The position numbers and the translations under genes were made by a program. From IMG/VR virus record IMGVR_UViG_3300045988_148039: a stretch of DNA of 49,193 bases, one strand, 5' to 3'. Origin of the DNA: a virus. Taxonomy: Duplodnaviria; Heunggongvirae; Uroviricota; Caudoviricetes. Numbering within the stretch: position 1 is the stretch's first letter; each line of letters begins with the position of its first letter. Shown here one piece after another: positions 6,730 to 33,811 of the stretch. The notes below the pieces were generated by a model. It was not told the origin of the DNA. It worked only from the letters and a program-made list of their open reading frames with translations, and did not search any database.

Positions 6730-8109
6730 CTACTTAATCAACGGCCGGAAAGCCGCCAGCACATCATCAGATCGTCCGATTGTTGAACCACCAGGCAACG
6801 GCAACTCAAACTCAAAACGAACAGCTTTCTCCAGACTCGCCCAACTAAGGGAATCATCGTTAATGACGTGCAAATACCAGCTCTTACAGTTGAATATTGA
6901 CCGCTTAATCCTGAAACCATGTACACGACACAACTGCTTCACTTCATCATCAGAGTGAAACTTCTGGTAAAACCAGTGCCCCTTCCGGTACAACGCGGTA
7001 AAACCGTTATGATCAATAAAATAAAGCCGGCTTTTGGAACTCGCAGCTTGTGTTTGCTTCAGGACTGTTTCCAGCTCTCCACGGCTACGGCCAGAAAAGA
7101 ATATTGACCCACCAGCTTTACACAAGCCTTTCAGAACCGTCAGAACGGACCATTCAGCCTCGACACTATCGACCGAGTTCAAAACGCTATCGCAAATCAC
7201 GTAGTCGTAACGCCCTCGCGTTTTTAAGTCGTCCACCAGCGTATCAATCATCCGGTTTGTTGCGGTCCTATCCAGAGTGTTTCCAGCGCCCTTACGGCGG
7301 AAAAGCTCGAGATCATGCAGGTTATATCCCTTTGCCCTGAGCATTCGCGCGTAGTCTCCCTGCCCCGAACCAAAATCAATTCCTCTTGGCGTCTTGGCAA
7401 TGATCGGGAGGATCAACGACTCATACAGGTTTGATTTCAGGCTGCCACCATTACGCAACCGCATAAGCTGCGCATACGTCTGGATGTATGTTGTTTTCTC
7501 CAGATGAGAATACTCAAATACACCATAAGTTTTATTCAGATAACTTTGGTATTTTTCCTTCTCAACATCAGGGATCACAAACACCGTTAGCGGTGTGCGC
7601 GTCATCTTCGCTGCTAATGCATACTGAGCACAGTGAATAACCTCGCCAGACTGAGTCGCAACACAACCACCCCACGGACCATACTTGATAACCAGTTCCG
7701 CTATGTTCTTTCGAACATATGCCATTTTCGCGCGCATATTGCCTGAGATCTGGCTTGCCGATACCTGAACAAAACCATGCTTATCTTCCAGACCGGACAC
7801 CCTGCAACGCTCATCTCCGCTATCAAAATCCGTTCCGTTATGCAGTTGGTTAAACCGTACTTCGTCGTATACCGTCGTTTCACAGGGCAACACATACACC
7901 GCAGCACGCGTTATTCCCAACTTACGTAGCGCCTTCGTCCTTTGGTGTCCCGCCACCAGCAAATCGCCGCGCACTATCAATGGCTTCACAAGCCCCAGCT
8001 CCCTGACGCTTTCCGCCAGCCTCGCAAGATCATCTTCACCGATAAAACGCGGGTTATATTCCGCGCCGCGTAGGTGCGTTATGTCGTAATTGAGGTGAAG
8101 CATCAGCAC
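6730..8109 (-). CDS. ParB N-terminal domain fused to a SAM-dependent methyltransferase (probable DNA methyltransferase)
   Basis: 459 aa; N-terminal ParB-like region (LVAGHQRTKAL) and central motif-I-like IDFGSGQGDYARML; overlaps the upstream ParB-like gene by 7 nt. Confidence 0.65.
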   Translation of the reverse strand: MLMLHLNYDITHLRGAEYNPRFIGEDDLARLAESVRELGLVKPLIVRGDLLVAGHQRTKALRKLGITRAAVYVLPCETTVYDEVRFNQLHNGTDFDSGDERCRVSGLEDKHGFVQVSASQISGNMRAKMAYVRKNIAELVIKYGPWGGCVATQSGEVIHCAQYALAAKMTRTPLTVFVIPDVEKEKYQSYLNKTYGVFEYSHLEKTTYIQTYAQLMRLRNGGSLKSNLYESLILPIIAKTPRGIDFGSGQGDYARMLRAKGYNLHDLELFRRKGAGNTLDRTATNRMIDTLVDDLKTRGRYDYVICDSVLNSVDSVEAEWSVLTVLKGLCKAGGSIFFSGRSRGELETVLKQTQAASSKSRLYFIDHNGFTALYRKGHWFYQKFHSDDEVKQLCRVHGFRIKRSIFNCKSWYLHVINDDSLSWASLEKAVRFEFELPLPGGSTIGRSDDVLAAFRPLIK

Positions 8110-8726
8110 ACCTCCCCAGCCAGCAATGCGGATACAAATCCGATATAGCTGCCATTATCATCAACATAACGAGACACCGCGCAGTCAAAACGATCCGCTT
8201 CCTCATCCGTTGCCGGGATTTTATGACCTCCAAATGACAGGTACTGAACTTTTACGCCTGATTTGGCCTCATCCTTCTCAAATGGGATATCCATACCCTC
8301 TGTGTCATCGTAGACCGCCGCACTCAATAAGTTATCCAGTTCGCGCTGAGTAAAACCAATTGAGTCCAGAGCAAAATCATCGGCCGCAAGATCTGCAAGC
8401 TCCGCGCTTAACAACTCTTCATCCCAACCAGCATTCAGCGGAATACGGTTGTCGGCCAGACGATATGCCTTCTTCTGATTCTCCGTTAGCCCAGCCAGAA
8501 CAATGCAGGGAACATCATCCATCCCCAACTGAGTGGCCGCAGCAATTCGACCATGACCAGCAATTACAACGTTGTTCTCGTCTATCAGGATCGGATTAGT
8601 CCATCCGTACTCCTGTATGCTGGCAACAATCTGATCTACCTGCTCCACGGAGTGTGTGCGAGCGTTCTTTTCATAACCAATCAACACAGAAAGTGGTAAA
8701 GAAACCACATTAAGTTGTTTTGTCAT
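8103..8726 (-). CDS. ParB-like nuclease domain protein (paralog 2)
   Basis: 207 aa; alignable along its length with the 4846..5436 product (VEQ...IAGHGR...NQKKAYRLADNRIPLNAGW, IPATDEE). Confidence 0.65.
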   Translation of the reverse strand: MTKQLNVVSLPLSVLIGYEKNARTHSVEQVDQIVASIQEYGWTNPILIDENNVVIAGHGRIAAATQLGMDDVPCIVLAGLTENQKKAYRLADNRIPLNAGWDEELLSAELADLAADDFALDSIGFTQRELDNLLSAAVYDDTEGMDIPFEKDEAKSGVKVQYLSFGGHKIPATDEEADRFDCAVSRYVDDNGSYIGFVSALLAGEVC

Positions 8727-19748: not shown

Positions 19749-20260
19749 TGATGGCCCCCGTCATTTCTGGTGCTTTTCACCGTGCGGCTGCTTAAAAACC
19801 TGCCATTACGAGAAACAGACACATCTCGTTTACCCAACCTCATTTCACGGCGGTAACATTCAGAAAATGCCTCGTCCGGCAGCATATAAATGCGACGCTT
19901 CGCCTCCGTATCCAGAAGAGAACGGCTTGGGGTTACATATAAAAACGACTCATCAATAGGGATAAAACCACGAGCAAGAATTGCTGGCAGAATGCCAGGA
20001 AGAACGCAGAAAACAGCTCCACGATGCAGCAACATCTTGTACTCCATGACCTCCGTTATCCCCGTGACGACTGTTACGGTGTCACGTCTGTTACGGCTGG
20101 CAACCAGTCGCTGCACACGTCCAATTTTCTGCTCTACAGATAGACGTTTACTATCGTTATCAATATGATCGATAACAAATCCTTTAATCGTTTGATCAAG
20201 GTAGTGCACCACCTGCGATTGAATCTGGTGATTATCACCAAAGAAGGCCAGAATCATCAT
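19745..20260 (-). CDS. Hypothetical protein
   Basis: 171-aa ORF immediately downstream of the Cro-like gene. Confidence 0.4.
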   Translation of the reverse strand: MMILAFFGDNHQIQSQVVHYLDQTIKGFVIDHIDNDSKRLSVEQKIGRVQRLVASRNRRDTVTVVTGITEVMEYKMLLHRGAVFCVLPGILPAILARGFIPIDESFLYVTPSRSLLDTEAKRRIYMLPDEAFSECYRREMRLGKRDVSVSRNGRFLSSRTVKSTRNDGGHQ

Positions 20261-20751
20261 TCCTCAAGCCTCCCAAGTGCTGAACGCCGGGCGTTGCTAA
20301 TCTCCTTATGAATCAGCTCGATATCGCTGGAATCTTTATTCTTAAACTCCAGCACGGCAATCGCATCACGAACCTCTGAAACGGTTACGTGTGAGTGTTT
20401 CCAGCGAGCAATGAATCGCGGACCGCGTAGATTGCAACGCTCCGCAGGCATCCCCAGCTCAGAGAAAACCGCTTTCAGCCTTGATAAGCAGTTAACAGGG
20501 AGATTCCCTTTGATCTTGTTCTGCCGAACCGATGTGCCATCGCTACGCTGGCGCTGACGTTCGGCAAAATCTGCCGCCCATTGCTGGACGTTAATCCGGC
20601 CTTCCGAATACGCCACCAGCAGCGTCAGGTTATCCGCACGAGGGAATCTCTCGAAGCGATACCAGGCACCAATCAGTGATGACGTAAAGCCAAACTTTCT
20701 GGCAACACCAATTTGGCCTCCATTTTCGTCAACCCACTCCTGAAAGGTCAT
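20257..20751 (-). CDS. Cro/CI-type HTH regulator, divergent from the cI-like repressor
   Basis: 164 aa; N-terminal HTH-like segment; transcribed divergently across the operator region. Confidence 0.55.
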   Translation of the reverse strand: MTFQEWVDENGGQIGVARKFGFTSSLIGAWYRFERFPRADNLTLLVAYSEGRINVQQWAADFAERQRQRSDGTSVRQNKIKGNLPVNCLSRLKAVFSELGMPAERCNLRGPRFIARWKHSHVTVSEVRDAIAVLEFKNKDSSDIELIHKEISNARRSALGRLEE

Positions 20752-20770
20752 TTAACGAACTCCAGTTAAA

Positions 20771-20888
20771 ACCACGATATGTGGTATTAAAACCACATAT
20801 CGTGAGTTTTTCAATGGGCGAAACAAAAAATAACCTTCTATTTGTGGTCCACCTCTCGTCTTACCATGTGAAAACCACTAAATGTGGT
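20771..20888. promoter_or_regulatory. Immunity operator region with ACCAC-N5-GTGGT palindromes
   Basis: ACCACGATATGTGGT (20771..20785), a 13-bp perfect inverted repeat CACGATATGTGGT/ACCACATATCGTG with 6-bp spacer (20773..20804), and ACCACTAAATGTGGT (20874..20888). Confidence 0.6.
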
Positions 20889-20925
20889 AATGTATAAATA
20901 ACCCACCATTCACGATTGATGAGAC

Positions 20926-21582
20926 ATGAAAAGCAACGACGAGAACATCAAGAAAGAAATAGGTCTGCGCATTCAGACTCTACGGAAACAATCCGGCATG
21001 ACTGCCGGAGATCTCCAGCAAGTCACTGGAATAGGCTTAAGCACCTTGCAGAACTATGAGGCCGGATTAAGACAACCATCTATACCTGCCATCAAGAAAA
21101 TCGCGCACGCCCTGAAAGCATCAGCGCCTTATATCGCGTGCTTAACAGATAACCCGTTCCTACCCCAGAATACTAACGCTCCTGTTATTCCTGGGCTTGT
21201 AGCTATAAAAAATGACATAGCATCGCACGCCGGAGAAAAGCCAGTGCTGGCGATAGAACAGGAGATTCTACGAAGCAAGAACATCAACCCATCGTCTCTG
21301 TCAGTTCTCCAGAGCAACGATGAGTTAATGTCACCAACAATATCCCCTGGCTCCCAAGTCCTGATTAATACAGACGATACAGAGATTCATGAGGGGATCT
21401 ATGCCCTTGAAGACAGAAATGGCCTGGTTGTTTTGAGGCACTGTAGAGTCATACCGGGTGACAATGCTGTTATGCTGTCAACCGAAAGGGATGCTGAAAT
21501 GAACACTAAGCATCTGAATAACGAGGAATTTAAGCGTTATAAAGTTCTTGGCCGCGTAGTTAGTGTTGTCAACTGGTTATGA
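20926..21582 (+). CDS. cI-like repressor (N-terminal XRE HTH, C-terminal LexA/S24-like autocleavage domain)
   Basis: 218 aa; HTH segment GMTAGDLQQVTGIGLSTLQNYEAG; S24-like C-terminal region with candidate Ser (ELMSPT) and Lys (KRYKVLGRV). Confidence 0.75.
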   Translation: MKSNDENIKKEIGLRIQTLRKQSGMTAGDLQQVTGIGLSTLQNYEAGLRQPSIPAIKKIAHALKASAPYIACLTDNPFLPQNTNAPVIPGLVAIKNDIASHAGEKPVLAIEQEILRSKNINPSSLSVLQSNDELMSPTISPGSQVLINTDDTEIHEGIYALEDRNGLVVLRHCRVIPGDNAVMLSTERDAEMNTKHLNNEEFKRYKVLGRVVSVVNWL

Positions 21583-21624
21583 TACACAGCACGGCGAAAG
21601 CCGTGCATTTCTACGCTCAAAAAA

Positions 21625-21639
21625 ACCACATTTTGTGGT
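21625..21639. promoter_or_regulatory. Additional ACCACATTTTGTGGT operator next to a TTGACA -35 element
   Basis: Read directly, downstream of a CACGGC-gaaa-GCCGTG hairpin that follows the cI stop. Confidence 0.5.
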
Positions 21640-21674
21640 TTTGACAACATGTAAAAGTATAAAAGAGGCTACGC

Positions 21675-22049
21675 ATGGAATTACATACAGCCAATAAAAA
21701 CGAAACTCTGATCACTGCTGGAATCGAAATCCAAGCGTTGAACATAGCGATTGAGTGTATGTTATGCCAAATCATTGATAATGAAAAAGATATCGACTGG
21801 ATAGAATCTATCCTTCATCTGGCATCAGAACAAAAAGTCTGCCTCAAAACGGCCTTACAATACGATGTGCCAGCGGTATCGAAGCTGTGCCAGCCATTGA
21901 TGGCATATAACAGGGCTATTATTTCTGTATGCCTCATGATTCTTGATGAAAACACCCCTCTTAGCGACCGCTCAGAAGCTGCTCTAACACTCTCACGTAA
22001 ACAGCGACAGCTAGCAAATCAACTGATATCAACGATAGCTGACCTCTGA
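21675..22049 (+). CDS. Hypothetical protein downstream of cI
   Basis: 124-aa ORF with an AGAGG RBS. Confidence 0.4.
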   Translation: MELHTANKNETLITAGIEIQALNIAIECMLCQIIDNEKDIDWIESILHLASEQKVCLKTALQYDVPAVSKLCQPLMAYNRAIISVCLMILDENTPLSDRSEAALTLSRKQRQLANQLISTIADL

Positions 22050-22075
22050 CTGAAAGCGGGCTAACGCCCGCTTAT

Positions 22076-22180
22076 ATGATTATAGATTTATATAATTATA
22101 TAAAACGCTTTTCATCCGCCAAAAAGTTGGTTATGCTTACCTCGTTCTATAAATATAGATTTATAGAATTATATAACCAA
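22076..22180. promoter_or_regulatory. Two AT-rich palindromic motif copies upstream of the ParA-type gene (candidate centromere/operator)
   Basis: TTATAGATTTATATAATTATATAA and TCTATAAATATAGATTTATAGAATTATATAA read directly. Confidence 0.5.
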
Positions 22181-22184
22181 ACAC

Positions 22185-22853
22185 ATGGAGTCTCGACAAA
22201 TGACTATCTCTGTAGGTATTTTCAACGGAAAAGGCGGCGTAACCAAATCAACAATTGCCCGTGCTTTAGCAGTTGCTTATGCAAAGGCCGGCTGGAATGT
22301 ATGCCTGATCGATATGGATGTGCTTAACGGAACGGTAACGCGTTGGGTACAACGCAGAATGGCCAACAATATCGAACCTGCAATCGCGGCGCAGCCGTGC
22401 GGCACGCCATCACAAGTCCAGAAAATCATCGAATCAGAAGTATACGACCTGGTTATCGTCGATGGCGGTGCCTACGCATCTGAATCAGTACCGAAGCTCT
22501 CTGAATTTCTGGATATGGTTATTTTGCCAACCAGATTCTCTACCGATGACCTGGAAACCACCGTTAACACAGCTCATGGCATCGTTAAAAAGGGTGTGCC
22601 AATCAAGAAAATTTGCATGGTGTTCTCAGGCGCGGCTGAAAACGAAGCCGACTACATTGAAGCCCAAGAGTACCTGGCTAATACGCCATACTTTGTTGTC
22701 GATAAGTACATTCCCCACAAGCCAGCTCTGAGCAAAGCTCAGGATAAGGGCTTAAGCCTCATTGAATGCTCATACGTTGCGCCACGCAAAAAGGCAGACG
22801 ACGTTATTCAGGGGATTATCAACCAGCTTGAGGCTCTGACTACTGCCGCGTAA
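22185..22853 (+). CDS. ParA/ParF-type partition ATPase
   Basis: 222 aa with deviant Walker A NGKGGVTKST. Confidence 0.75.
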   Translation: MESRQMTISVGIFNGKGGVTKSTIARALAVAYAKAGWNVCLIDMDVLNGTVTRWVQRRMANNIEPAIAAQPCGTPSQVQKIIESEVYDLVIVDGGAYASESVPKLSEFLDMVILPTRFSTDDLETTVNTAHGIVKKGVPIKKICMVFSGAAENEADYIEAQEYLANTPYFVVDKYIPHKPALSKAQDKGLSLIECSYVAPRKKADDVIQGIINQLEALTTAA

Positions 22854-23366: not shown

Positions 23367-23389
23367 TAAAAAAGGCCCCCGAAGGGGCC
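23367..23389 (-). terminator. Rho-independent terminator (GGCCCC-GAA-GGGGCC with run of T on the minus strand)
   Basis: Perfect GC hairpin preceded on the plus strand by AAAAAAA; read directly. Confidence 0.6.
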
Positions 23390-23395
23390 TAATCG

Positions 23396-23518
23396 CTACT
23401 TGCTGCTAATGTTTATCGTCACATTCAGAGCGTTATCAGTAATCTTCCAACCCTCCCCATGTGGCGTAAACAAAGCTCCAGTAACAACGATAAAAATACA
23501 CATACAGTATTTTTTCAT
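23396..23518 (-). CDS. Small hydrophobic peptide (about 40 aa)
   Basis: Internal ATG at 23518 gives MKKYCMCIFIVVTGALFTPHGEGWKITDNALNVTINISSK; terminator immediately downstream. Confidence 0.3.
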   Translation of the reverse strand: MKKYCMCIFIVVTGALFTPHGEGWKITDNALNVTINISSK

Positions 23519-23916
23519 TGTATGGCCCTTACAGGCCGTTTCACGGCATCCCCACCGACGAAAACAACGCGAGAGCAAGCACGGCTGCTTGTGCTTGCAT
23601 GTACGGCAACGGAGAATCCTCCCCTAAAGTCGGTGCCCGGGTGCGAATCGGCGGGAAGGTCCACAGGTATTTTACGATTATTTTAAGATTAGTAATAGGA
23701 AAGAAATTAAACGAAAAAACTCGTTTATTTTCACAAAATCAGTAACCTACCCACAATCTGTGAGTTTGCAGGCACAACAAGAACCACAATTTTTTGAAGC
23801 ATAATAGTGGACTATTATTACCTTTTGGGTAAAATTAACTTGCTGCTTGTGCTTGCGTGGTTGTTTATACAACAACGTAATGCTGAAAGGACCGCGAATC
23901 CGATCAGCACGAAAGA

Positions 23917-23943: not shown

Positions 23944-24034
23944 TTTCTGCCTACCAATAAACCCACGCTATGTGGTTGTCTCTGTTAAAATCCCGCCGTA
24001 TTGACATGAATGCGCCATTGGTGGACACTTTCCG

Positions 24035-24110
24035 AGCCGTAGCAAAATCTACGGTCGGGATTAGCCTCCTGAATAACACGATGGCGCATACCGCGTTAGC
24101 GGTTTTTTTA
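24035..24110 (+). ncRNA. Candidate small antisense RNA (immI/C4-like position upstream of the antirepressor)
   Basis: TTGACA at 24001..24006; about 75 nt with hairpin CCGTAG-caaaatc-TACGG and a 3' hairpin plus T-run at 24090..24109; GATTAGCCTC at 24058 recurs at 24224 next to the following ORF. Confidence 0.3.
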
Positions 24111-24235
24111 TGCGTAGAGCACTGTTACGCCCAAATTATGGTGGGTCGTACAGGGGCGGAGAAATCCGCGCCGGTTCGTCATTGTGTCCGGTAAGGCTAA
24201 CCCTGTACGGCTCACCACCATTTGATTAGCCTCGA

Positions 24236-24463
24236 ATGGCGGTGATAGTTCCATATACTGGAGATATCACAATGACAAACCTACCCCATGACTATTACGT
24301 CAACCTCGTAAAGATCCTTCTCAAGAAAGCCTCATACGCCGATAAATTCCGCCTGGCTGAAATCATCGAGCGCGAAGCTATGCGCATCGCCAGCAACGAT
24401 AACGCTGTTTCTGACGCAAAAATCTCCCTCGTAACCAAAGTAGTTATGGGAGGTGCAAAATGA
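24236..24463 (+). CDS. Small protein upstream of and overlapping the antirepressor start
   Basis: 75-aa ORF; stop overlaps the antirepressor ATG. Confidence 0.35.
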   Translation: MAVIVPYTGDITMTNLPHDYYVNLVKILLKKASYADKFRLAEIIEREAMRIASNDNAVSDAKISLVTKVVMGGAK

Positions 24464-25611
24464 AAACGCTTCGGACCGTTAACACCCTACAGCCTATCCT
24501 GCATAATCAGATTCCAGTAATCACAACTGAGCTACTCGCCCGCCTTTATGGAACAGAAGCAATCCGTATACAGCAAAATCACCATGAAAATAAAACTCGG
24601 TTCATTGAGGGGAAGCACTTCTTTAAAGCTGTTGGTGATGAACTCAAAAATTTGCGACTAGTTTTAAACGAGTCACAAAATGAGGTACAAATTTCCCCCA
24701 AAACTCGCTCTCTCATCCTCTGGACAGAACGTGGGGCTGCACGTCACGCTAAAATGCTCGAAACCGATCAGGCGTGGGATGTGTTCGAACGTCTGGAAGA
24801 CTGCTATTTCAGCCAGAACGCGCAAACGGCCGCGACCGTAACCGTCTCACCAAACAATGCTCGTGAGGTTGTCGATACGCTCAACGCCAAACCAATGTAT
24901 TACGTTAAGGTGTGCAACAACGAGCCACTCACAACCTCAGCCGATGTTGCCCAAGCATTCAGCACCACAAACAATTCCATCGTTATGGCCATCGATGCGT
25001 TACGCATTCCTCGCACGGCTGCGGCGCGTCACTTCTTTAAAGAACAACGACCGCTGGAAGGAAGCGACCGCGAAATAACAATCTATCGCATGACAAAAGA
25101 CGGATTTACCTTGCTCATGGAGAGTATCGACGGTCCAGGCGTGAAAGATATCAAGCTGGCCTACATTGAAGCCTTTAACGCTATCAGCAGCGTGTTAAAA
25201 ACACAGTACGAGCGTGATCTGGCTAAACGACTGTACCAGGAAAAAACGATTATCCGCGCGGCAACAGAGCATAATCGGCTATTAACGGAACCGAACTACA
25301 GGAAGGAACTAATAAAGGAGTTTGACAAGGCAACAGGGAAAACCAAAGCGGCGCTAAATCTGCCAGCAATGACTCAGGAAAATGTGATATCAGCCTTACT
25401 TCTTGATCTGCTCAGAAACGCCAGAGCACTTATCAGCTTTGACGAAAATCTGAACCCTCAGCTCAAACTACTACCACCGACAGGCAAAGTAGTCGACCAA
25501 GCTGATCACAACAGCATACTCAGCGTACTGGATGCAAACCTGCCAGCCAAGACACTACAGGAACTGATAAAAATATCTGCGGATAAACTGGCCGCAGGTG
25601 CAAAACCATAA
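24460..25611 (+). CDS. Antirepressor-like protein
   Basis: 383 aa; domain assignment (KilA-N/ORF6N-like N-terminus, Rha-like middle) is from memory of those families. Confidence 0.6.
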   Translation: MKTLRTVNTLQPILHNQIPVITTELLARLYGTEAIRIQQNHHENKTRFIEGKHFFKAVGDELKNLRLVLNESQNEVQISPKTRSLILWTERGAARHAKMLETDQAWDVFERLEDCYFSQNAQTAATVTVSPNNAREVVDTLNAKPMYYVKVCNNEPLTTSADVAQAFSTTNNSIVMAIDALRIPRTAAARHFFKEQRPLEGSDREITIYRMTKDGFTLLMESIDGPGVKDIKLAYIEAFNAISSVLKTQYERDLAKRLYQEKTIIRAATEHNRLLTEPNYRKELIKEFDKATGKTKAALNLPAMTQENVISALLLDLLRNARALISFDENLNPQLKLLPPTGKVVDQADHNSILSVLDANLPAKTLQELIKISADKLAAGAKP

Positions 25612-29905: not shown

Positions 29906-30886
29906 TTAATGTTGGAGTGATTTCCAGGTCTTTCTTAGCCTGTTATAACGCTGCTCAACGAGGGAGCGTAAATATGCAAGGTCAGCTCCAGGATACATGC
30001 CATCAGCAAATTCCTGGCTAACCTCTCTAGTGATTTGATGACGAAGTTCGGCCTCTCCCTTTTCCCGAACAAGACGCGCAGCTCTCTCCGCTGCTTTCTG
30101 TTTTGCCTTTATCTCTCTGGCCGTCTTCCTCTGACGCCATACATTCTCCATCTGCTCCTGAATAACAATACGCTTATAATCAGCCTCCGTTATCGCTTTT
30201 TTAAGCCGTTCGCTATTCTTCGCATTGAAGTAATTAAGTTTCTGGCTAACCGCACGTCTCCATGCTTGTTCAGTAATACCAACGGTTTCCAGCAGTTGAT
30301 CACGAATCTCTATTTTCGCTGGCCAATACTGTTTATTCACCCGATCCCAGCGACGTTCATAATCAATAAAACCTAACGCTTTCAGTTGCGACAACGCCCT
30401 TGTACAGCGCGTTATAGACTTGTTCCCAGCTTCGGATACGGTAGACAGGCCGCAAAAATCAGCCAACGCCTCAGCACTAGCCAGAACCCGCTTAGAAATG
30501 ATGTTTACATGGTGCAAAATCGCAGCGATCACAGCATTAATCGCCCGACGACGATGCTCGTTTATCCGGCGCTTCCGCTCTGACGGTTGATTAACGTAGA
30601 ACGCAACCTCACACGTAAGATCACGCCCATTAATGCGCTGTAAAGCATCAGATAACACCAGCGGCAGCTTGTGCGTATGGTGCTTTGGAGGCTGGAACTC
30701 CGGCGACAAATTACAAACGTAAGCTGAACGTAGAGACGGCATTGGTCTATCCATATGTTCGCTCTTGCGTCCACGGAAAACCAACGTATAATGGGAGTTG
30801 TCGAGGCGCCCATGGATTGTTGTTGTTGGTTTTCCGTGGATGTCGCAAGAAGCCCGCAGATTTATCTGCGGGCTTTTTGTTTCCAT
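29906..30886 (-). CDS. repA: Plasmid replication initiator RepA (IncFII/RepFIIA-type); true start possibly internal (MDRPMPS, about 30754)
   Basis: Central segment NKSITRCTRALSQLKALGFIDYERRWD resembles R100/R1 RepA1 KLSITRATRALTFLSELGLITYQTEYD as I recall it; basic C-terminal half; length about 280 aa from the internal start. Confidence 0.7.
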   Translation of the reverse strand: METKSPQINLRASCDIHGKPTTTIHGRLDNSHYTLVFRGRKSEHMDRPMPSLRSAYVCNLSPEFQPPKHHTHKLPLVLSDALQRINGRDLTCEVAFYVNQPSERKRRINEHRRRAINAVIAAILHHVNIISKRVLASAEALADFCGLSTVSEAGNKSITRCTRALSQLKALGFIDYERRWDRVNKQYWPAKIEIRDQLLETVGITEQAWRRAVSQKLNYFNAKNSERLKKAITEADYKRIVIQEQMENVWRQRKTAREIKAKQKAAERAARLVREKGEAELRHQITREVSQEFADGMYPGADLAYLRSLVEQRYNRLRKTWKSLQH

Positions 30887-31067
30887 ATCTGGTCACTTTC
30901 CAACCAGACACCCACAATCATAACCACGTTACGTGGTTTTAAGAGAACTCTACCACAACACTTTCGGTCATGCACGAAGTCTCTCACTGATCGAACGATA
31001 ATCCACCAGTAAAAGGATCTAAATTGGATCTCGTTTTGCGAGCATCATACTACTGGCCTAACTCCAG

Positions 31068-31622
31068 TCAATGATTCCCAGCCGGAAACCTGCGGTAAAG
31101 CGTGGATAAGGTAACATCGAAGATAATCGCTATCTGCTTACGTGAAACACCATTCGCAATAAGCCTTCCGATCTGTTCCCATTGCTCTGGTGCCAATTTT
31201 GAGCGGCGTCCTCCTATCCTGCCGTTAGCCCTTGCCACCGCCAATCCTGCACGCGTTCTTTCAATCATATTTTCCCGCTCCATCTCTGCGACTGCACTCA
31301 GCATCGTGTAGGCAAAGCGGCCAATTGAAGTGCTAATTTTTATCCCTTCCGTAATCGAAATAAACTCAATGTTGTTTGATAAAAAATAATTAAGTAAATC
31401 AACAAGATGAATCAGAGAGCGCCCCATTCGGTCCAGCTTCCAGACAATAACCGTATCGCCCGGCCGTAACACCTTCAGTAGCTTATCAAGTCCTGGTCGT
31501 TTTGATTTAGCACCGGATATTTTATCTTCAAAAATCCGGTCACATCCTGAACTCCTGAGCGCCTCCAGTTGTAATTCCAAATTCTGGTCAAAAGTTGACA
31601 CCCTCGCATAACCATATTGCAT
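31068..31622 (-). CDS. Serine recombinase, Gin/Hin/Pin/Cin-family DNA invertase
   Basis: 184 aa; MQYGYARVSTFDQNLELQ, VWKLDRMGRS and C-terminal HTH closely parallel Gin as I recall it. Confidence 0.9.
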   Translation of the reverse strand: MQYGYARVSTFDQNLELQLEALRSSGCDRIFEDKISGAKSKRPGLDKLLKVLRPGDTVIVWKLDRMGRSLIHLVDLLNYFLSNNIEFISITEGIKISTSIGRFAYTMLSAVAEMERENMIERTRAGLAVARANGRIGGRRSKLAPEQWEQIGRLIANGVSRKQIAIIFDVTLSTLYRRFPAGNH

Positions 31623-31693
31623 ACTTTCTAAACCGCGATTGTTGCTAAAAGCGGGAAAAAATATCGTTCAGACGACACAGAGGCAATTCGCAA

Positions 31694-31720
31694 AAACCTC
31701 GGTTTACAGGAAACGGTAAA
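31694..31720. repeat. Invertase crossover site, left copy (AAACCTCGGTTTACAGGAAACGGTAAA)
   Basis: Inverted copy of 34751..34775 with one mismatch in the shared core; encodes ...LGLQETVN... in both fiber reading frames. Confidence 0.8.
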
Positions 31721-32720
31721 CAGGGCTGGTAACGCCGTGCAAAAAAATGGCGATACTTTGTCCGGTGGGCTTACTTTTGAAAATGACTCAATCCTTGCCT
31801 GGATTCGAAATACTGACTGGGCGAAGATTGGATTTAAAAATGATGCCGATGGTGACACTGATTCATACATGTGGTTTGAAACAGGCGACAACGGCAATGA
31901 ATATTTCAAATGGAGAAGCAAACAAAGCACCACAACAAAAGACCTGATGAATCTTAAATGGGATGCTTTGTCTGTTCTTGTTAAAGCCCTTTTCAGCAGT
32001 GAAGTAAAAATATCGACAGTCAATGCACTGAGGATATTTAATTCATCTTTTGGTGCCATTTTTCGCCGTTCTGAAGAATGCCTGCATATCATCCCTACAC
32101 GAGAGAACGAGGGAGAAAATGGTGATATAGGGCCACTACGCCCCTTTACGCTTAATCTTAGAACTGGTCGGATAAGCATGGGGCATGGTCTTGATGTTAC
32201 AGGGGATATATTTGCAAACCGTTTTGCAATTAACAGTAGTACCGGCATGTGGATTCATATGCGTGACCAGAATGTTATTTTGGGACGCAATGCGGTATCC
32301 ACCGATGGTGCGCAGGCATTACTTCGTCAGGACCATGCTGATCGCAAATTTATGATTGGTGGGCTGGGAAATAAGCAATTTGGCATCTACATGATTAATA
32401 ACTCAAGGACAGCCAATGGCACCGATGGTCAGGCGTACATGGATAATAACGGGAACTGGCTTTGCGGTGCGCAAGTTATTCCCGGCAACTATGGCAATTT
32501 TGATTCCAGATATGTGAAAGATGTTCGACTTGGTTCACAGCAATATTATGGAGTGAACAACTGGCAAACATGGAATTTCCAGTGCCCGTCAGGTCATGTA
32601 TTGTCTGGTATTAATGTTCAGGATACAGGGTCCAACTCTGCCGATAATATAGCGGGCGTTTATTACAGACCCGTTCAAAAGTATATAAATGGCACCTGGT
32701 ATAATGTAGCGAGCGTTTAA
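31694..32720 (+). CDS. Alternative tail-fiber C-terminal segment (no own start; fused to the constant part after inversion)
   Basis: Frame open upstream to the crossover site with no start codon; C-terminus ...[11 protein letters not shown] matches the current fiber's ...INGTWYNAGSI. Confidence 0.7.
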
Positions 32721-32721
32721 T

Positions 32722-33249
32722 ATGATGCACTTAAAGAACATAAAAGCGGGTAACGCTAAAACACTGGAGCAGTATGAGTTAACAAAGAAGCACGGAGTCA
32801 TCTGGCTTTACTCTGAGGACGAAAAAAACTGGTATGAGGAAGTGAAAAACTTTCAGCCAGACACAATAAAGATTGTTTACGATGAAAATAATATTATTGT
32901 CGCCATCACCAAAGATGCATCCACGCTTAACCCTGAAGGTTTTAGCGTCGTTGAGGTTCCCGATATAACGGCCAATCGTCGGGCCGATGATTCCGGTAAG
33001 TGGATGTTTAAGGACGGAGCTGTGGTTAAACGGATTTATACGGCAGACGAACAGGAACAACAGGCCGAATCACAAAAGGCCGCGTTACTTTCCGAAGCAG
33101 AAAGCATTATTCAGCCACTGGAACGCGCTGTCAGGCTGAATATGGCGACGGATGAGGAACGCGCACGACTGGAGTCATGGGAACGCTACAGCGTTCTGGT
33201 CAGCCGTGTGGATACAGCAAAGCCCGAATGGCCACAAAAGCCTGAGTAA
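32722..33249 (+). CDS. Tail fiber assembly chaperone (for the alternative fiber tip)
   Basis: 175 aa starting MMHLKNI; paralog of 33278..33811. Confidence 0.75.
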
Positions 33250-33277
33250 AAATTAAGGCCCAATATCGGGCCTTCTC

Positions 33278-33811
33278 TCATTCTGGTTGTTCGGGAAACG
33301 TTACTGGCAGGCTGGAGGTGTCTGTGGATTCGACTTTCTGCGCGTAAAGCATCCACTCGGTTAATTTTTGTTTATTCTCGTCGGAAATGATGCCCAGCCG
33401 TAGCTGTGAGTCCCATAGCTGGGTTTTATCCCTGACAAGTTGCAACAGGCTTTGCTTTTCATTCTCTGCCTGCTGCCTCTGTTCCTCCTCGGTATAAGTT
33501 CGCTTTATCACTACGCCATCTTTGAACATCCATTTACCCGAAATATCAGCCCGGCGATTTGCTGTAATATCAGGAACCTCAACGACGCTTGCGCCTTCTG
33601 GATTAATTGCTGAAACATCCTTTTCAATACAAATAATAACGTCGTTGTGGTCATAGACCATTTTCAACGTATCAGGCTGAAAGTTCTTTTGTTCCTCATA
33701 CCAGTTTTTCCCATCCTCTGTATAAAGCCATTTGATGTTAAATTGTTTCGTTAGCTGGTATTGCTCTTTTGTTTTAGGGTTGCCAGCAGTAATATTTTTT
33801 AAGTGCATCAT
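33278..33811 (-). CDS. Tail fiber assembly chaperone (for the currently expressed fiber tip)
   Basis: 177 aa starting MMHLKNI; immediately downstream of the fiber gene. Confidence 0.75.
   Translation of the reverse strand: MMHLKNITAGNPKTKEQYQLTKQFNIKWLYTEDGKNWYEEQKNFQPDTLKMVYDHNDVIICIEKDVSAINPEGASVVEVPDITANRRADISGKWMFKDGVVIKRTYTEEEQRQQAENEKQSLLQLVRDKTQLWDSQLRLGIISDENKQKLTEWMLYAQKVESTDTSSLPVTFPEQPE

What the first reader, a model, noticed from the sequence alone, without database searches (positions are those of the whole stretch)
20771..21639. ACCAC-N5-GTGGT operator set for the cI-like repressor
Three perfect 15-bp sites of the form ACCAC-N5-GTGGT and one larger 13-bp-arm palindrome lie between the divergent cI-like and Cro-like genes, with one more site overlapping a TTGACA element in front of the gene downstream of cI. 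This defines a candidate operator consensus distinct from the AT-rich dispersed motif.
Basis: seen in the sequence. Interest (0 to 1): 0.45.

Follow-up and report, generated by a model that had tools for sequence, protein, structure and literature searches.

The report
Repressor operator sites of a phage-plasmid
A short DNA palindrome (ACCAC-N5-GTGGT) repeated around the repressor gene of a roughly 48-kb E. coli phage-plasmid, and again in front of its replication gene, is very probably the set of binding sites through which the prophage repressor silences lytic genes and limits plasmid replication; this is ordinary phage biology in an unstudied family.

Summary
The motif is real. ACCAC-N5-GTGGT occurs four times in 49 kb against 0.05 expected. 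Only two perfect sites (20771, 20874) lie between the divergent genes. The "13-bp-arm palindrome" is the first site plus a degenerate neighbour 21 bp away (20792). The third perfect site (21625) follows the cI terminator. A fourth perfect site (30923) lies outside the stated span, in front of the IncFII-type repA gene.

In 13 relatives whose repressor is 61-66% identical, the 5-bp arms stay unchanged at all homologous positions while the central 5 bp vary. Arm columns are invariant in 46 of 50 cases, against 143 of 398 for other non-coding columns. There are no compensatory arm changes, which points to protein recognition rather than a hairpin.

The repressor has an HTH_3 domain and a degenerate S24-like domain (catalytic Ser to Glu, Lys to Arg). 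Induction therefore probably runs through the C4-RNA-controlled antirepressor nearby.

The closest analogue is the N15/phiKO2 CB repressor, with OR sites plus OL sites at repA. There is no detectable sequence homology to it and the operator consensus is different. Binding itself is untested, and the promoter assignments are weak.

Verdict: a new member of a known kind, of moderate interest.

The parts
20768..20788 (.). O1: operator AAAACCACGATATGTGGTATT (perfect core 20771-20785). It lies over the predicted start region of the leftward (lytic) transcript.
   Evidence: Exact match; PWM score 30.5 against a shuffle maximum of 19; the right arm GTGGTAT is invariant in 12 distinct relatives.
20789..20809 (.). 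O1': degenerate operator AAAACCACATATCGTGAGTTT (core 20792-20806, 2 mismatches), exactly 21 bp from O1. It lies between the putative -35 and -10 of the leftward promoter.
   Evidence: PWM 19.4. The left arm AAACCAC is invariant, and the right arm is imperfect in every relative (GTGGG, GTGAG or GCGAG). The 21-bp spacing is kept in the 12 of 13 relatives where both sites pass the 1-mismatch scan; L014 shows neither.
20786..20814 (-). Putative leftward early promoter: -35 TTGAAA (20814..20809), 17-bp spacer, -10 TTTAAT (20791..20786).
   Evidence: Read by eye. The TTG of the -35 is kept in all relatives. The consensus scan did not report it because the -10 lacks A at position 2. Inferred, weak.
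20829..20848 (.). Conserved non-canonical element AATAACCTTCTATTTGTGGT. It has one good half-site (TTTGTGGT, 20841-20848) and a conserved but non-matching left part.
   Evidence: CCTyCy-N-TTTGTGGT is conserved in all 12 distinct relatives. It does not fit the 5-bp spacing. Function unknown.
20871..20891 (.). O2: operator AAAACCACTAAATGTGGTAAT (perfect core 20874-20888), 52 nt upstream of the cI start codon.
   Evidence: PWM 25.2. Both arms are invariant in all relatives, and the distance to the cI ATG is 50-54 nt.
20885..20893 (+). Putative extended -10 of the cI promoter, TGGTAATGT, overlapping the right arm of O2.
   Evidence: GTGGTAA-NN-T is conserved in all relatives. Not found by the consensus scan. 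Inferred.
20926..21582 (+). cI-like repressor gene (218 aa): an N-terminal HTH_3 domain and a degenerate S24-like C-terminal domain.
   Evidence: Pfam HTH_3 E 4.5e-11; Peptidase_S24 E 0.0018, below the gathering score. phrog_4 transcriptional repressor E 3.4e-26. Ser to Glu and Lys to Arg at the catalytic positions.
20257..20751 (-). First gene of the leftward early operon (164 aa). It sits in the Cro position but has no recognisable family.
   Evidence: No Pfam or NCBIfam hit; phrog_7452 has unknown function; AF2 pLDDT 62.6; Foldseek gave no hit with E below 0.001.
21589..21606 (+). Terminator hairpin after cI (GCACGGC-GAAA-GCCGTGC).
   Evidence: Conserved in 11 distinct relatives with compensatory stem changes, and followed by a T-run in the relatives.
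21622..21642 (.). O3: operator AAAACCACATTTTGTGGTTTT (perfect core 21625-21639). It lies between the cI terminator and the ribosome-binding site of orf124 (21675-22049), which precedes parA (22185-22853).
   Evidence: PWM 31.9. Arms are invariant in all 13 relatives with 7 different central pentamers, and the distance to the orf124 ATG is 50-55 nt.
23959..23979 (.). O5 (candidate): TAAACCCACGCTATGTGGTTG (core 23962-23976, 1 mismatch), upstream of the C4-RNA/antirepressor operon.
   Evidence: PWM 16.1 against a shuffle 95th percentile of 14.1. A 1-mismatch site is at the same place in L007, L010 and L011, but is absent in L002, L004, L005 and L012. The C4 RNA is at 24134-24222. The antirepressor gene is 24460-25611.
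30920..30940 (.). O4: operator ATAACCACGTTACGTGGTTTT (perfect core 30923-30937), upstream of the repA leader.
   Evidence: PWM 31.9. Arms are invariant and the centre varies (GTTAC, ACAAC, ACATC) in all 6 relatives that include repA.
30947..30955 (-). Putative extended -10 of the repA promoter (TGGTAGAGT on the minus strand). It would place the transcription start near 30940, at the edge of O4.
   Evidence: TGnTAGAGT is conserved in all 7 distinct sequences. Not found by the consensus scan. Inferred.
29906..30886 (-). repA, an IncFII-type replication initiator. The true start is probably near 30754 or 30742.
   Evidence: NCBIfam RepA_IncFII_LM scores 231.5 bits against a cut-off of 70, and the match begins at residue 58 of the ORF. 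Annotated repA in L001; 277 aa in relatives.

Best explanation
The ACCAC-N5-GTGGT palindromes (full form AAAACCAC-N5-GTGGTTTT) are the operators of the cI-like prophage repressor encoded at 20926-21582. A repressor dimer would place one helix-turn-helix on each 5-bp arm; the arm centres are 10 bp apart, one helical turn.

Predicted roles of the sites:
- O1 and its weaker neighbour O1' are 21 bp (two turns) apart. They cover the start region and the -35/-10 spacer of the leftward early (lytic) promoter and shut it off, probably cooperatively.
- O2 overlaps the repressor's own promoter, which would give negative autoregulation.
- O3 lies directly behind the cI terminator. It either controls orf124/parA or acts as an auxiliary (looping) site, in the position that OL has in N15.
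- O4 sits at the repA promoter, so the same repressor would hold replication initiator synthesis, and hence copy number, down during lysogeny and release it on induction.
- A weaker site, O5, lies in front of the C4-RNA/antirepressor operon.

The repressor's S24-like domain has lost the Ser/Lys dyad. Induction is therefore predicted to go through the antirepressor rather than RecA-stimulated self-cleavage.

Shown: the sites, their statistics, positions and conservation, and the domain content of the proteins. Inferred: which protein binds, all promoter positions, cooperativity and looping, and the effect on copy number.
For: 1. Enrichment: 4 exact matches against 0.05 expected. A PWM gives 4 hits at 25-32 bits and 3 more at 16-19 bits, against a shuffle 95th percentile of 14.1 and a maximum of 19.0.

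2. Position: all four perfect sites are non-coding and lie directly upstream of transcription units. These are the leftward early operon, cI, orf124-parA and repA.

3. Phylogenetic footprint: 13 relatives from Salmonella, Citrobacter, Klebsiella, Yokenella and metagenomes have cI 61-66% identical. All of them keep a perfect site at the O2 and O3 positions, and O4 wherever repA is on the contig. O1 is perfect or has 1 mismatch in 12 of them (not in L014). The central pentamers differ. Arm columns are invariant in 46 of 50 cases against 143 of 398 for other non-coding columns, Fisher p 7e-15.

4. The arms never change by compensatory substitution, whereas the neighbouring cI terminator stem does. 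This argues for base-specific protein contacts rather than an RNA or DNA hairpin.

5. The repressor is a typical phage repressor (HTH_3 E 4.5e-11; phrog_4 E 3.4e-26). Its predicted recognition helix is identical in all relatives that share the arms. In the 35%-identical (alignment) Serratia homologue the core STLQNYE persists, and AACCAC half-sites persist at the same four positions.

6. Spacing is conserved: O1-O1' is 21 bp in the 12 relatives where both are detectable, and O1-O2 is 102-104 bp.

7. Precedent: the N15 and phiKO2 CB repressors bind three OR sites plus two OL sites at repA and lower plasmid copy number (PMC4997575).
Against: - No binding data exist.
- The consensus promoter scan found no canonical sigma-70 promoter at any site. 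All promoter assignments were made by eye (extended -10 or weak hexamers).
- O3 has no identifiable promoter at all. The adjacent TTGACA lacks a properly spaced -10 and is only semi-conserved.
- Other HTH proteins are encoded on the element: the leftward 164-aa protein of unknown fold, a conserved 90-aa XRE protein, and a toxin-antitoxin antitoxin. Any of them could bind instead or as well.
- O5 is missing in about half of the relatives.
- The Serratia relative keeps half-sites but not full palindromes, which is not fully explained.
Confidence: 0.8

Rival explanations
1. The sites are bound mainly or exclusively by another element-encoded DNA-binding protein, with the cI-like protein recognising something else. 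Candidates are the 164-aa product of the first leftward gene (the 'Cro' position) and the conserved 90-aa XRE protein near 26.4-26.7 kb.
For: In lambda-type switches Cro shares the repressor's operators. The 164-aa protein is conserved at 71-76% identity, with an all-helical N-terminal region of about 70 residues in the model. A conserved element at 20829-20848 does not fit the palindrome and could be a second protein's site.
Against: No DNA-binding domain is detectable in the 164-aa protein. The sites flank the cI gene itself, and one overlaps its predicted promoter, as expected for an autoregulated repressor. The cI recognition helix co-varies with retention of the arms and half-sites. In phiKO2 and PY54 Cro binds only one operator.
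Confidence: 0.1
2. The palindromes act as nucleic-acid structures rather than protein sites. They could be small bidirectional terminators or attenuators (an 8-bp stem followed by a T-run), or a cruciform formed by the 42-bp O1+O1' palindrome.
For: The terminator scan flags O1+O1' on both strands and also the O5 core. Every site has the form A4-stem-loop-stem-T4.
Against: - The arms are strictly invariant with no compensatory changes, whereas the true terminator 20 bp upstream of O3 does covary.
- The 13-bp extended complementarity of O1/O1' is unique to this lineage.
- A 5-bp GC-poor stem is thermodynamically weak.
- The sites lie upstream of genes and promoters, not at operon ends.
Confidence: 0.03
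3. The motif is the binding site of a host transcription factor that the element has recruited.
For: None directly. The element lives in several enterobacterial genera, so a conserved host factor is conceivable.
Against: From my own knowledge, no E. coli regulator has this consensus; it is 6/9 to a DnaA box at best. The sites cluster around the element's own repressor gene. Half-site retention follows the element's repressor helix in Serratia. A literature search for the motif found nothing.
Confidence: 0.04

Closest known systems
N15 / phiKO2 / PY54 telomere-phage CB repressor with OR1-3 and OL1-2 operators (PMC4997575, PMC4488713)
   Same: - Both are phage-plasmids with one prophage repressor.
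- Operators lie in the divergent repressor/lytic-gene intergenic region, there is a site directly downstream of the repressor gene, and there are sites at the repA promoter.
- In N15 and phiKO2 this represses repA and lowers copy number.
- CB also lacks the motifs needed for RecA-dependent self-cleavage.
- From my own knowledge, an antirepressor mediates induction in N15.
   Different: - There is no detectable sequence relationship: tblastn of this cI against 50,697 phage records did not list N15, phiKO2 or PY54 among the 40 rows shown.
- The operators differ: a 15/21-bp ACCAC-N5-GTGGT palindrome here, against 16-bp sites with a T-A-N10-T-A motif there.
- This element is a circular, myovirus-type phage-plasmid with an IncFII-type RepA and a candidate antisense RNA. 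N15 is a linear plasmid with a protelomerase and a multifunctional RepA.
- repA here has a single site, and it is about 10 kb from cI.
Lambda CI / OR-OL genetic switch
   Same: - The repressor combines an HTH with an S24-like domain, and the repressor and lytic operons are divergent.
- Several partially symmetric operators of graded quality overlap the promoters.
- Adjacent sites are spaced for cooperative binding, and a distal site could support looping.
   Different: - The catalytic Ser and Lys are replaced by Glu and Arg, so RecA-stimulated cleavage is unlikely.
- The half-site sequence is different.
- No Cro homologue is recognisable.
- There are additional operators at plasmid replication and antirepressor loci.
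P1 C1 repressor with dispersed operators and the immI (c4-icd-ant) region
   Same: Both are phage-plasmids whose primary repressor has operators scattered over the genome, including one at the C4-RNA/antirepressor operon. A C4 antisense RNA is present here (Rfam 70.8 bits against a gathering score of 45), upstream of an antirepressor gene.
   Different: From my own knowledge, P1 C1 is an unrelated protein that binds asymmetric 17-bp sites as a monomer. Here the repressor is an XRE/cI-type protein with palindromic sites. The site at the ant operon (O5) is imperfect and not universal in the family.
IncFII (R1/R100) replication control by CopB repressor and CopA antisense RNA
   Same: RepA is of the IncFII type. 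A strongly structured 88-nt stretch, with two stem-loops and a terminator, is encoded antisense to the repA leader. A repressor site sits at the repA promoter, where CopB acts in R1 (the R1 detail is from my own knowledge).
   Different: No copB gene is present, and the promoter-proximal site is the phage repressor's palindrome. Rfam found no CopA match.

Membership tests
cI/LexA-type phage repressor (HTH + S24 peptidase-like domain) | N-terminal Cro/C1-type helix-turn-helix domain | tested here: met
   Pfam HTH_3 E 4.5e-11, 43 bits against a cut-off of 23. phrog_4 'transcriptional repressor' E 3.4e-26 over residues 4-217.
cI/LexA-type phage repressor (HTH + S24 peptidase-like domain) | C-terminal S24 domain with a catalytic Ser-Lys dyad (self-cleavage) | tested here: not met
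   Peptidase_S24 scores only 18.4 bits, below the 23.3 cut-off. phrog_6201 'CI-like repressor' gives E 2.9e-9 for residues 110-214.
Lambda-type genetic switch | Several partially symmetric operators in the divergent repressor/lytic intergenic region | tested here: met
   O1, O1' and O2 lie within 20752-20925 and are conserved in relatives.
Lambda-type genetic switch | Operators overlap the divergent promoters | tested here: inconclusive
   The consensus scan finds no canonical promoter. By eye, TTGAAA-17-TTTAAT (leftward) and TGGTAATGT (cI) overlap the sites and are partly conserved. No transcription start data.
Lambda-type genetic switch | A Cro-family lytic repressor encoded divergently | tested here: inconclusive
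   The 164-aa protein has no family hit. The AF2 model has pLDDT 62.6 and no fold match.
Lambda-type genetic switch | The repressor physically binds the operators | not testable with these tools
   Needs EMSA, footprinting or ChIP.
N15/phiKO2/PY54 CB regulon | Repressor operator(s) at the repA promoter that couple immunity to plasmid replication | tested here: met
   The sequence criterion is met. A perfect site at 30923-30937 lies upstream of the repA leader and is conserved in all 6 relatives that include repA. The regulatory effect has not been tested.
N15/phiKO2/PY54 CB regulon | Homology of the repressor and operators to CB and its 16-bp T-A-N10-T-A sites | tested here: not met
   tblastn against the phage collection lists no telomere phage among the 40 rows shown. 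The operator consensus is different.
IncFII replicon | RepA of the IncFII family | tested here: met
   NF040977 scores 231.5 bits against a cut-off of 70. Pfam IncFII_repA is recorded in relatives.
IncFII replicon | CopA-type antisense RNA and a CopB repressor | tested here: inconclusive
   No Rfam CopA hit. A structured 88-nt stretch is encoded antisense to the repA leader (z -5.6). No copB-like ORF appears between O4 and the recombinase gene.
P1-type immI (C4 RNA / antirepressor) | C4 antisense RNA upstream of an antirepressor gene | tested here: met
   RF01695 scores 70.8 bits against a gathering score of 45, at 24134-24222. RF03163 (a1b1) scores 35.7, below its gathering score. The antirepressor PHROG hits give E 1.6e-62.

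The most novel reading that the evidence does not exclude
In this family the phage repressor may have taken over the role of CopB in an IncFII-type replicon. One palindrome at the repA promoter would make the lysis-lysogeny repressor the copy-number governor. Inactivation of the repressor by the antirepressor would then switch the same RepA/antisense-RNA replicon from low-copy plasmid maintenance to runaway lytic replication. No other replication initiator is recognisable in the early operon. The repressor regulon would then span all maintenance modules: the lytic operon, its own gene, the orf124-parA partition operon, the C4/antirepressor operon and repA.
Probability: 0.4. Interest if true: 0.5.

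Novelty: new member of a known kind. Interest (0 to 1): 0.35.

Why it matters
The element belongs to a widespread family that appears to be unstudied.
- 58 PLSDB plasmids of Escherichia, with one from Klebsiella, match it at 95% identity or more.
- Three phages isolated on Yersinia pestis match it at 99% or more, so the element is an active phage.
- More distant relatives occur in Salmonella, Citrobacter, Klebsiella, Yokenella, Enterobacter and Serratia.

A defined operator consensus gives a direct handle on its immunity specificity: which relatives are homo-immune. It also bears on how lysogeny is coupled to plasmid copy number and partition, and it points to cheap experiments (EMSA, reporter fusions). 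Conceptually it repeats the N15 logic in an unrelated replicon, which suggests convergent wiring of phage-plasmids. It does not introduce a new principle.

Tried and rejected
1. Genome-wide search for relatives of cI in 185,579 species-representative genomes: no confirmed locus. Relatives came from the protein database and contig look-ups instead.

2. Scan of IMG/VR for AAACCAC-N5-GTGGTTT: 120 or more contigs. Each contig listed carries a single isolated palindrome, as chance would give for 14 specified bases in that much DNA, so the scan was uninformative.

3. The pair of 1-mismatch sites at 8683 and 8704, also 21 bp apart: rejected as an operator. Both lie in the first 15 codons of the ParB/Srx-like gene 8103-8726. 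In the Salmonella relative only the part that encodes VVSLPL is kept, and the outer arms decay.

4. The 13-bp-arm palindrome as an element of its own (cruciform or terminator): rejected. The complementarity of the central pentamers is absent in all 11 other distinct sequences.

5. TTGACA at 21641 as the -35 of an orf124 promoter: no -10 at 16-18 bp. The nearby TATAAA (21658) is only 11 bp away and is not conserved.

6. Cro identity of the 164-aa protein: Pfam even at E below 10, NCBIfam, PHROGs, AF2 with an 11-sequence alignment (pLDDT 62.6) and Foldseek against the PDB all gave nothing usable.

7. Rfam CopA for the repA antisense region: no hit; only sub-threshold matches to Thr_leader and CsrC terminators.

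8. LexA box search: one match, in a structural gene and at chance level.

9. Literature searches found no paper on this family or this motif. The searches covered the phage name, the motif, 'phage-like plasmid 48 kb' and 'phage-plasmid IncFII C4'.
Full report
**What the window is.** The window matches three Yersinia pestis phages (vB_YpM_39, 41 and 44) at 99.1-99.5% identity over the immunity region. It also matches 58 circular, non-mobilizable plasmids at 95% or more; these are about 47-50 kb (one of 94 kb), 57 from Escherichia and one from Klebsiella. The annotated relative NZ_AP022818 carries a complete myovirus structural module, lysis genes, ParA, a RelE/ParE toxin-antitoxin pair, a serine recombinase next to the tail-fibre genes, and 'plasmid replication initiator RepA'. 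The element is therefore a phage-plasmid. I found no paper on this family.

**The observation.** ACCACNNNNNGTGGT has four exact matches in 49,193 bp, at 20771, 20874, 21625 and 30923. Dinucleotide-preserving shuffles expect 0.05, and none of 100 shuffles reaches four. The sites share flanks, which gives a 21-bp consensus AAAACCAC-N5-GTGGTTTT.
- Only two perfect sites lie between the divergent genes (intergenic 20752-20925).
- The third 'site' there is a degenerate copy, ACCACATATCGTGAG at 20792 (2 mismatches), exactly 21 bp from the first.
- The '13-bp-arm palindrome' (20773-20785 / 20792-20804) is simply these two neighbours. Their central pentamers, GATAT and ATATC, happen to be complementary in this lineage only.
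- The site at 21625 abuts TTGACA (21641-21646) rather than overlapping it.
- A fourth perfect site (30923) lies outside the given span.

**Gene context.**
- 20926-21582 (+) encodes a 218-aa protein with HTH_3 (E 4.5e-11) and a sub-threshold Peptidase_S24 match. It matches PHROG 4 'transcriptional repressor' over its full length (E 3.4e-26) and 'CI-like repressor' in the C-terminal half.
- 20257-20751 (-) is the first gene of a long leftward operon that includes a Ref nuclease and DUF1064 and DUF3560 proteins. Its 164-aa product has no family assignment. The AlphaFold model built from 11 homologues is of low confidence (pLDDT 62.6) and finds no fold match. 'Cro-like' therefore rests on position only.
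- Downstream of cI come a conserved terminator hairpin (21589-21606), site O3, orf124 (21675-22049, unknown function), AT-rich repeats and parA (22185-22853).
- Site 30923 lies between the stop codon of the recombinase gene (31068) and repA (29906-30886, minus strand). The repA product is IncFII-type: NCBIfam RepA_IncFII_LM scores 231.5 bits against a cut-off of 70.

**Comparative test.** The protein database holds homologues of the repressor at 61-66% identity from Salmonella, Citrobacter, Klebsiella, Yokenella and metagenome assemblies. I fetched 13 such loci: L002 from PLSDB and L004-L015.
- All of them keep the synteny (164-aa gene) <- -> cI, orf124, parA, and those long enough include repA.
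- Every locus has a perfect ACCAC-N5-GTGGT at the positions of O2 and O3. All six loci that include repA have one at O4.
- O1 is perfect or has one mismatch (CCCAC) in 12 of the 13; L014 has no detectable O1 or O1' site.
- O1' always has a perfect left arm and an imperfect right arm (GTGGG, GTGAG or GCGAG).
- The central five bases differ from locus to locus: seven variants at O3, three at O4 and four at O2.
- Over the three non-coding alignments the arm columns are invariant in 46 of 50 cases, against 143 of 398 for the remaining non-coding columns (Fisher p 7e-15). No locus had to be dropped for lack of a site, so the anchoring did not create this result.
- The arms never show compensatory changes. 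The cI terminator stem a few bases away does, for example A-T to G-C in L013. This pattern indicates base-specific protein contacts rather than a folded nucleic acid.
- Spacing is also conserved: O1-O1' is 21 bp where both are detectable, O1-O2 is 102-104 bp, O2 to the cI ATG is 50-54 nt, and O3 to the orf124 ATG is 50-55 nt.

**Link to the repressor.** The predicted helix-turn-helix region (…GIGLSTLQNYEAG…) is identical in all 61-66% relatives. A Serratia plasmid (pJSRIV006_2) carries the same immunity-partition-replication module joined to a lambda-like siphovirus structural module. Its repressor is only 33% identical by tblastn (35% in the alignment) but keeps STLQNYE. It has no perfect palindrome (one site, ACCACAGATTGAGGT, has one mismatch), yet AACCAC half-sites sit in all the homologous positions. 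This fits a binder that is the cI-like protein, but it does not prove it.

**Mechanism (inferred).**
- The arm centres are 10 bp apart, one helical turn, as expected for an HTH dimer.
- By eye, the leftward promoter would be TTGAAA (20814..20809), a 17-bp spacer, then TTTAAT (20791..20786). That places O1' in the spacer and O1 over the start site. The TTG is conserved in all relatives.
- The cI promoter may be an extended -10, TGGTAATGT (20885-20893), overlapping the right arm of O2. GTGGTAA-NN-T is invariant. This predicts negative autoregulation.
- On the minus strand, a conserved TGnTAGAGT (30955..30947) would start repA transcription at the edge of O4.
- None of these promoters is found by the consensus scan, so they remain hypotheses.
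- O3 has no convincing promoter. It may control orf124-parA through an atypical promoter, block read-through from cI, or serve as a looping partner 750-850 bp from O1/O2. This last role would match the OL sites that lie directly downstream of cB in N15 and phiKO2.

**Induction.** The family has Glu at the catalytic Ser position (…NDELM…) and Arg at the Lys position, so RecA-stimulated self-cleavage is unlikely. About 2.5 kb to the right, Rfam finds a C4 antisense RNA (24134-24222, 70.8 bits against a gathering score of 45), with its a1b1 target and an isrK-like element. These lie upstream of a 383-aa antirepressor (E 1.6e-62 to antirepressor PHROGs). This is a P1 immI-like arrangement. A one-mismatch palindrome (23962, PWM 16.1 against a shuffle 95th percentile of 14.1) lies about 60 bp upstream of the a1b1 element. 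Three relatives have a one-mismatch site at the same place, and four relatives with a different upstream region do not. I list it as a candidate fifth operator.

**Replication control.** The repA leader carries, on the opposite strand, a TATAAT (30787-30792) followed by an 88-nt stretch. This stretch folds into a stem-loop plus a strong terminator (-41.1 kcal/mol, z -5.6), the architecture of IncFII CopA-type antisense RNAs. Rfam does not match it, and no copB-like gene is present. The phage palindrome sits where a promoter repressor would act. By analogy with N15 and phiKO2, where CB binding at OL represses repA and lowers copy number (PMC4997575), I infer that the repressor limits RepA synthesis in lysogeny and releases it on induction.

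**Rivals.**
- Another encoded HTH protein could bind the sites, most plausibly as a second binder rather than the only one.
- Hairpin or terminator function is contradicted by the lack of covariation and by the positions of the sites.
- A host factor is unsupported.
- Chance is excluded.

**Comparison and verdict.** Functionally this is a lambda/N15-type repressor-operator set. It is not a homologue of the N15 system: one search lists no telomere phage among the 40 rows shown, and the consensus is different. It departs from lambda in its dead protease domain and in having operators at plasmid-maintenance loci. It is a new member of a known kind. Interest is moderate (0.35).

Noticed in passing
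window 24023-24222 (+), with gene 24460-25611 (+): A P1 immI-like module. It contains a C4 antisense RNA (RF01695, 70.8 bits, above the gathering score), an isrK-like RNA (65.7 bits, above the gathering score) and a c4 a1b1 target (below the gathering score). All lie upstream of a small ORF and a 383-aa antirepressor with ORF6N/Ant and Rha-like parts. Relatives carry Rha-type antirepressors at the same place.
   Followed up: partly
window 23368-23664 (-): A strong Rfam match to ryfA RNA (142 bits against a gathering score of 80), in the non-coding stretch between the partition genes and the antirepressor module. It is possibly a type I toxin-antitoxin or sRNA locus carried by the element.
   Followed up: no
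window 30787-30884 (+): A candidate CopA-like antisense RNA against the repA leader. A TATAAT at 30787-30792 is followed by 88 nt that fold into a stem-loop with a 16-nt loop plus a 16-bp terminator and a T-run (-41.1 kcal/mol, z -5.6). The stretch is conserved in relatives, with a variable first loop. There is no Rfam CopA hit.
   Followed up: partly
window 22072-22184: AT-rich repeats (TATAGATTTATAKAATTATATAA, two good copies plus overlapping partial ones, arranged as inverted pairs) between orf124 and parA. They are distinct from the ACCAC palindromes.
   Followed up: partly
window 20829-20848: A conserved non-coding element, AACCTTCTATTTGTGGT, between O1' and O2. It has one canonical half-site and a conserved left part that never matches ACCAC. 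It does not fit the 5-bp spacing and has no assigned function. It could be a second protein's site or part of a promoter.
   Followed up: partly
window 8683-8718: Two 1-mismatch copies of the palindrome, 21 bp apart, inside the first 15 codons of the ParB/Srx-like gene 8103-8726 (-). The outer arms are not conserved in the Salmonella relative, so this is probably a coding or chance coincidence.
   Followed up: yes
window 20926-21582 (protein residues about 140-180): The repressor's S24-like domain has Glu and Arg at the positions of the catalytic Ser and Lys in all family members. It is probably a pure dimerisation domain.
   Followed up: partly
L003 (Serratia sp. JSRIV006 plasmid pJSRIV006_2, NZ_CP074139): The same immunity, orf124-parA, Ref/DUF1064 early genes and IncFII repA module is joined to a lambda-like siphovirus structural module instead of the myovirus one. 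This is a clear mosaic. Its operators appear reduced to AACCAC half-sites.
   Followed up: partly
window 29906-30886 (-): The 326-aa repA ORF is probably over-extended. The RepA profile match starts at residue 58, relatives are annotated at 277 aa, and in-frame ATGs lie at 30754 and 30742. The upstream in-frame part overlaps the antisense-RNA region and could correspond to a leader peptide, as in IncFII tap.
   Followed up: partly
window 31068-33811: A serine recombinase gene (31068-31622, -) lies next to oppositely oriented tail-fibre and tail-fibre-assembly genes. This looks like a Cin/Gin-type invertible host-range segment.
   Followed up: no
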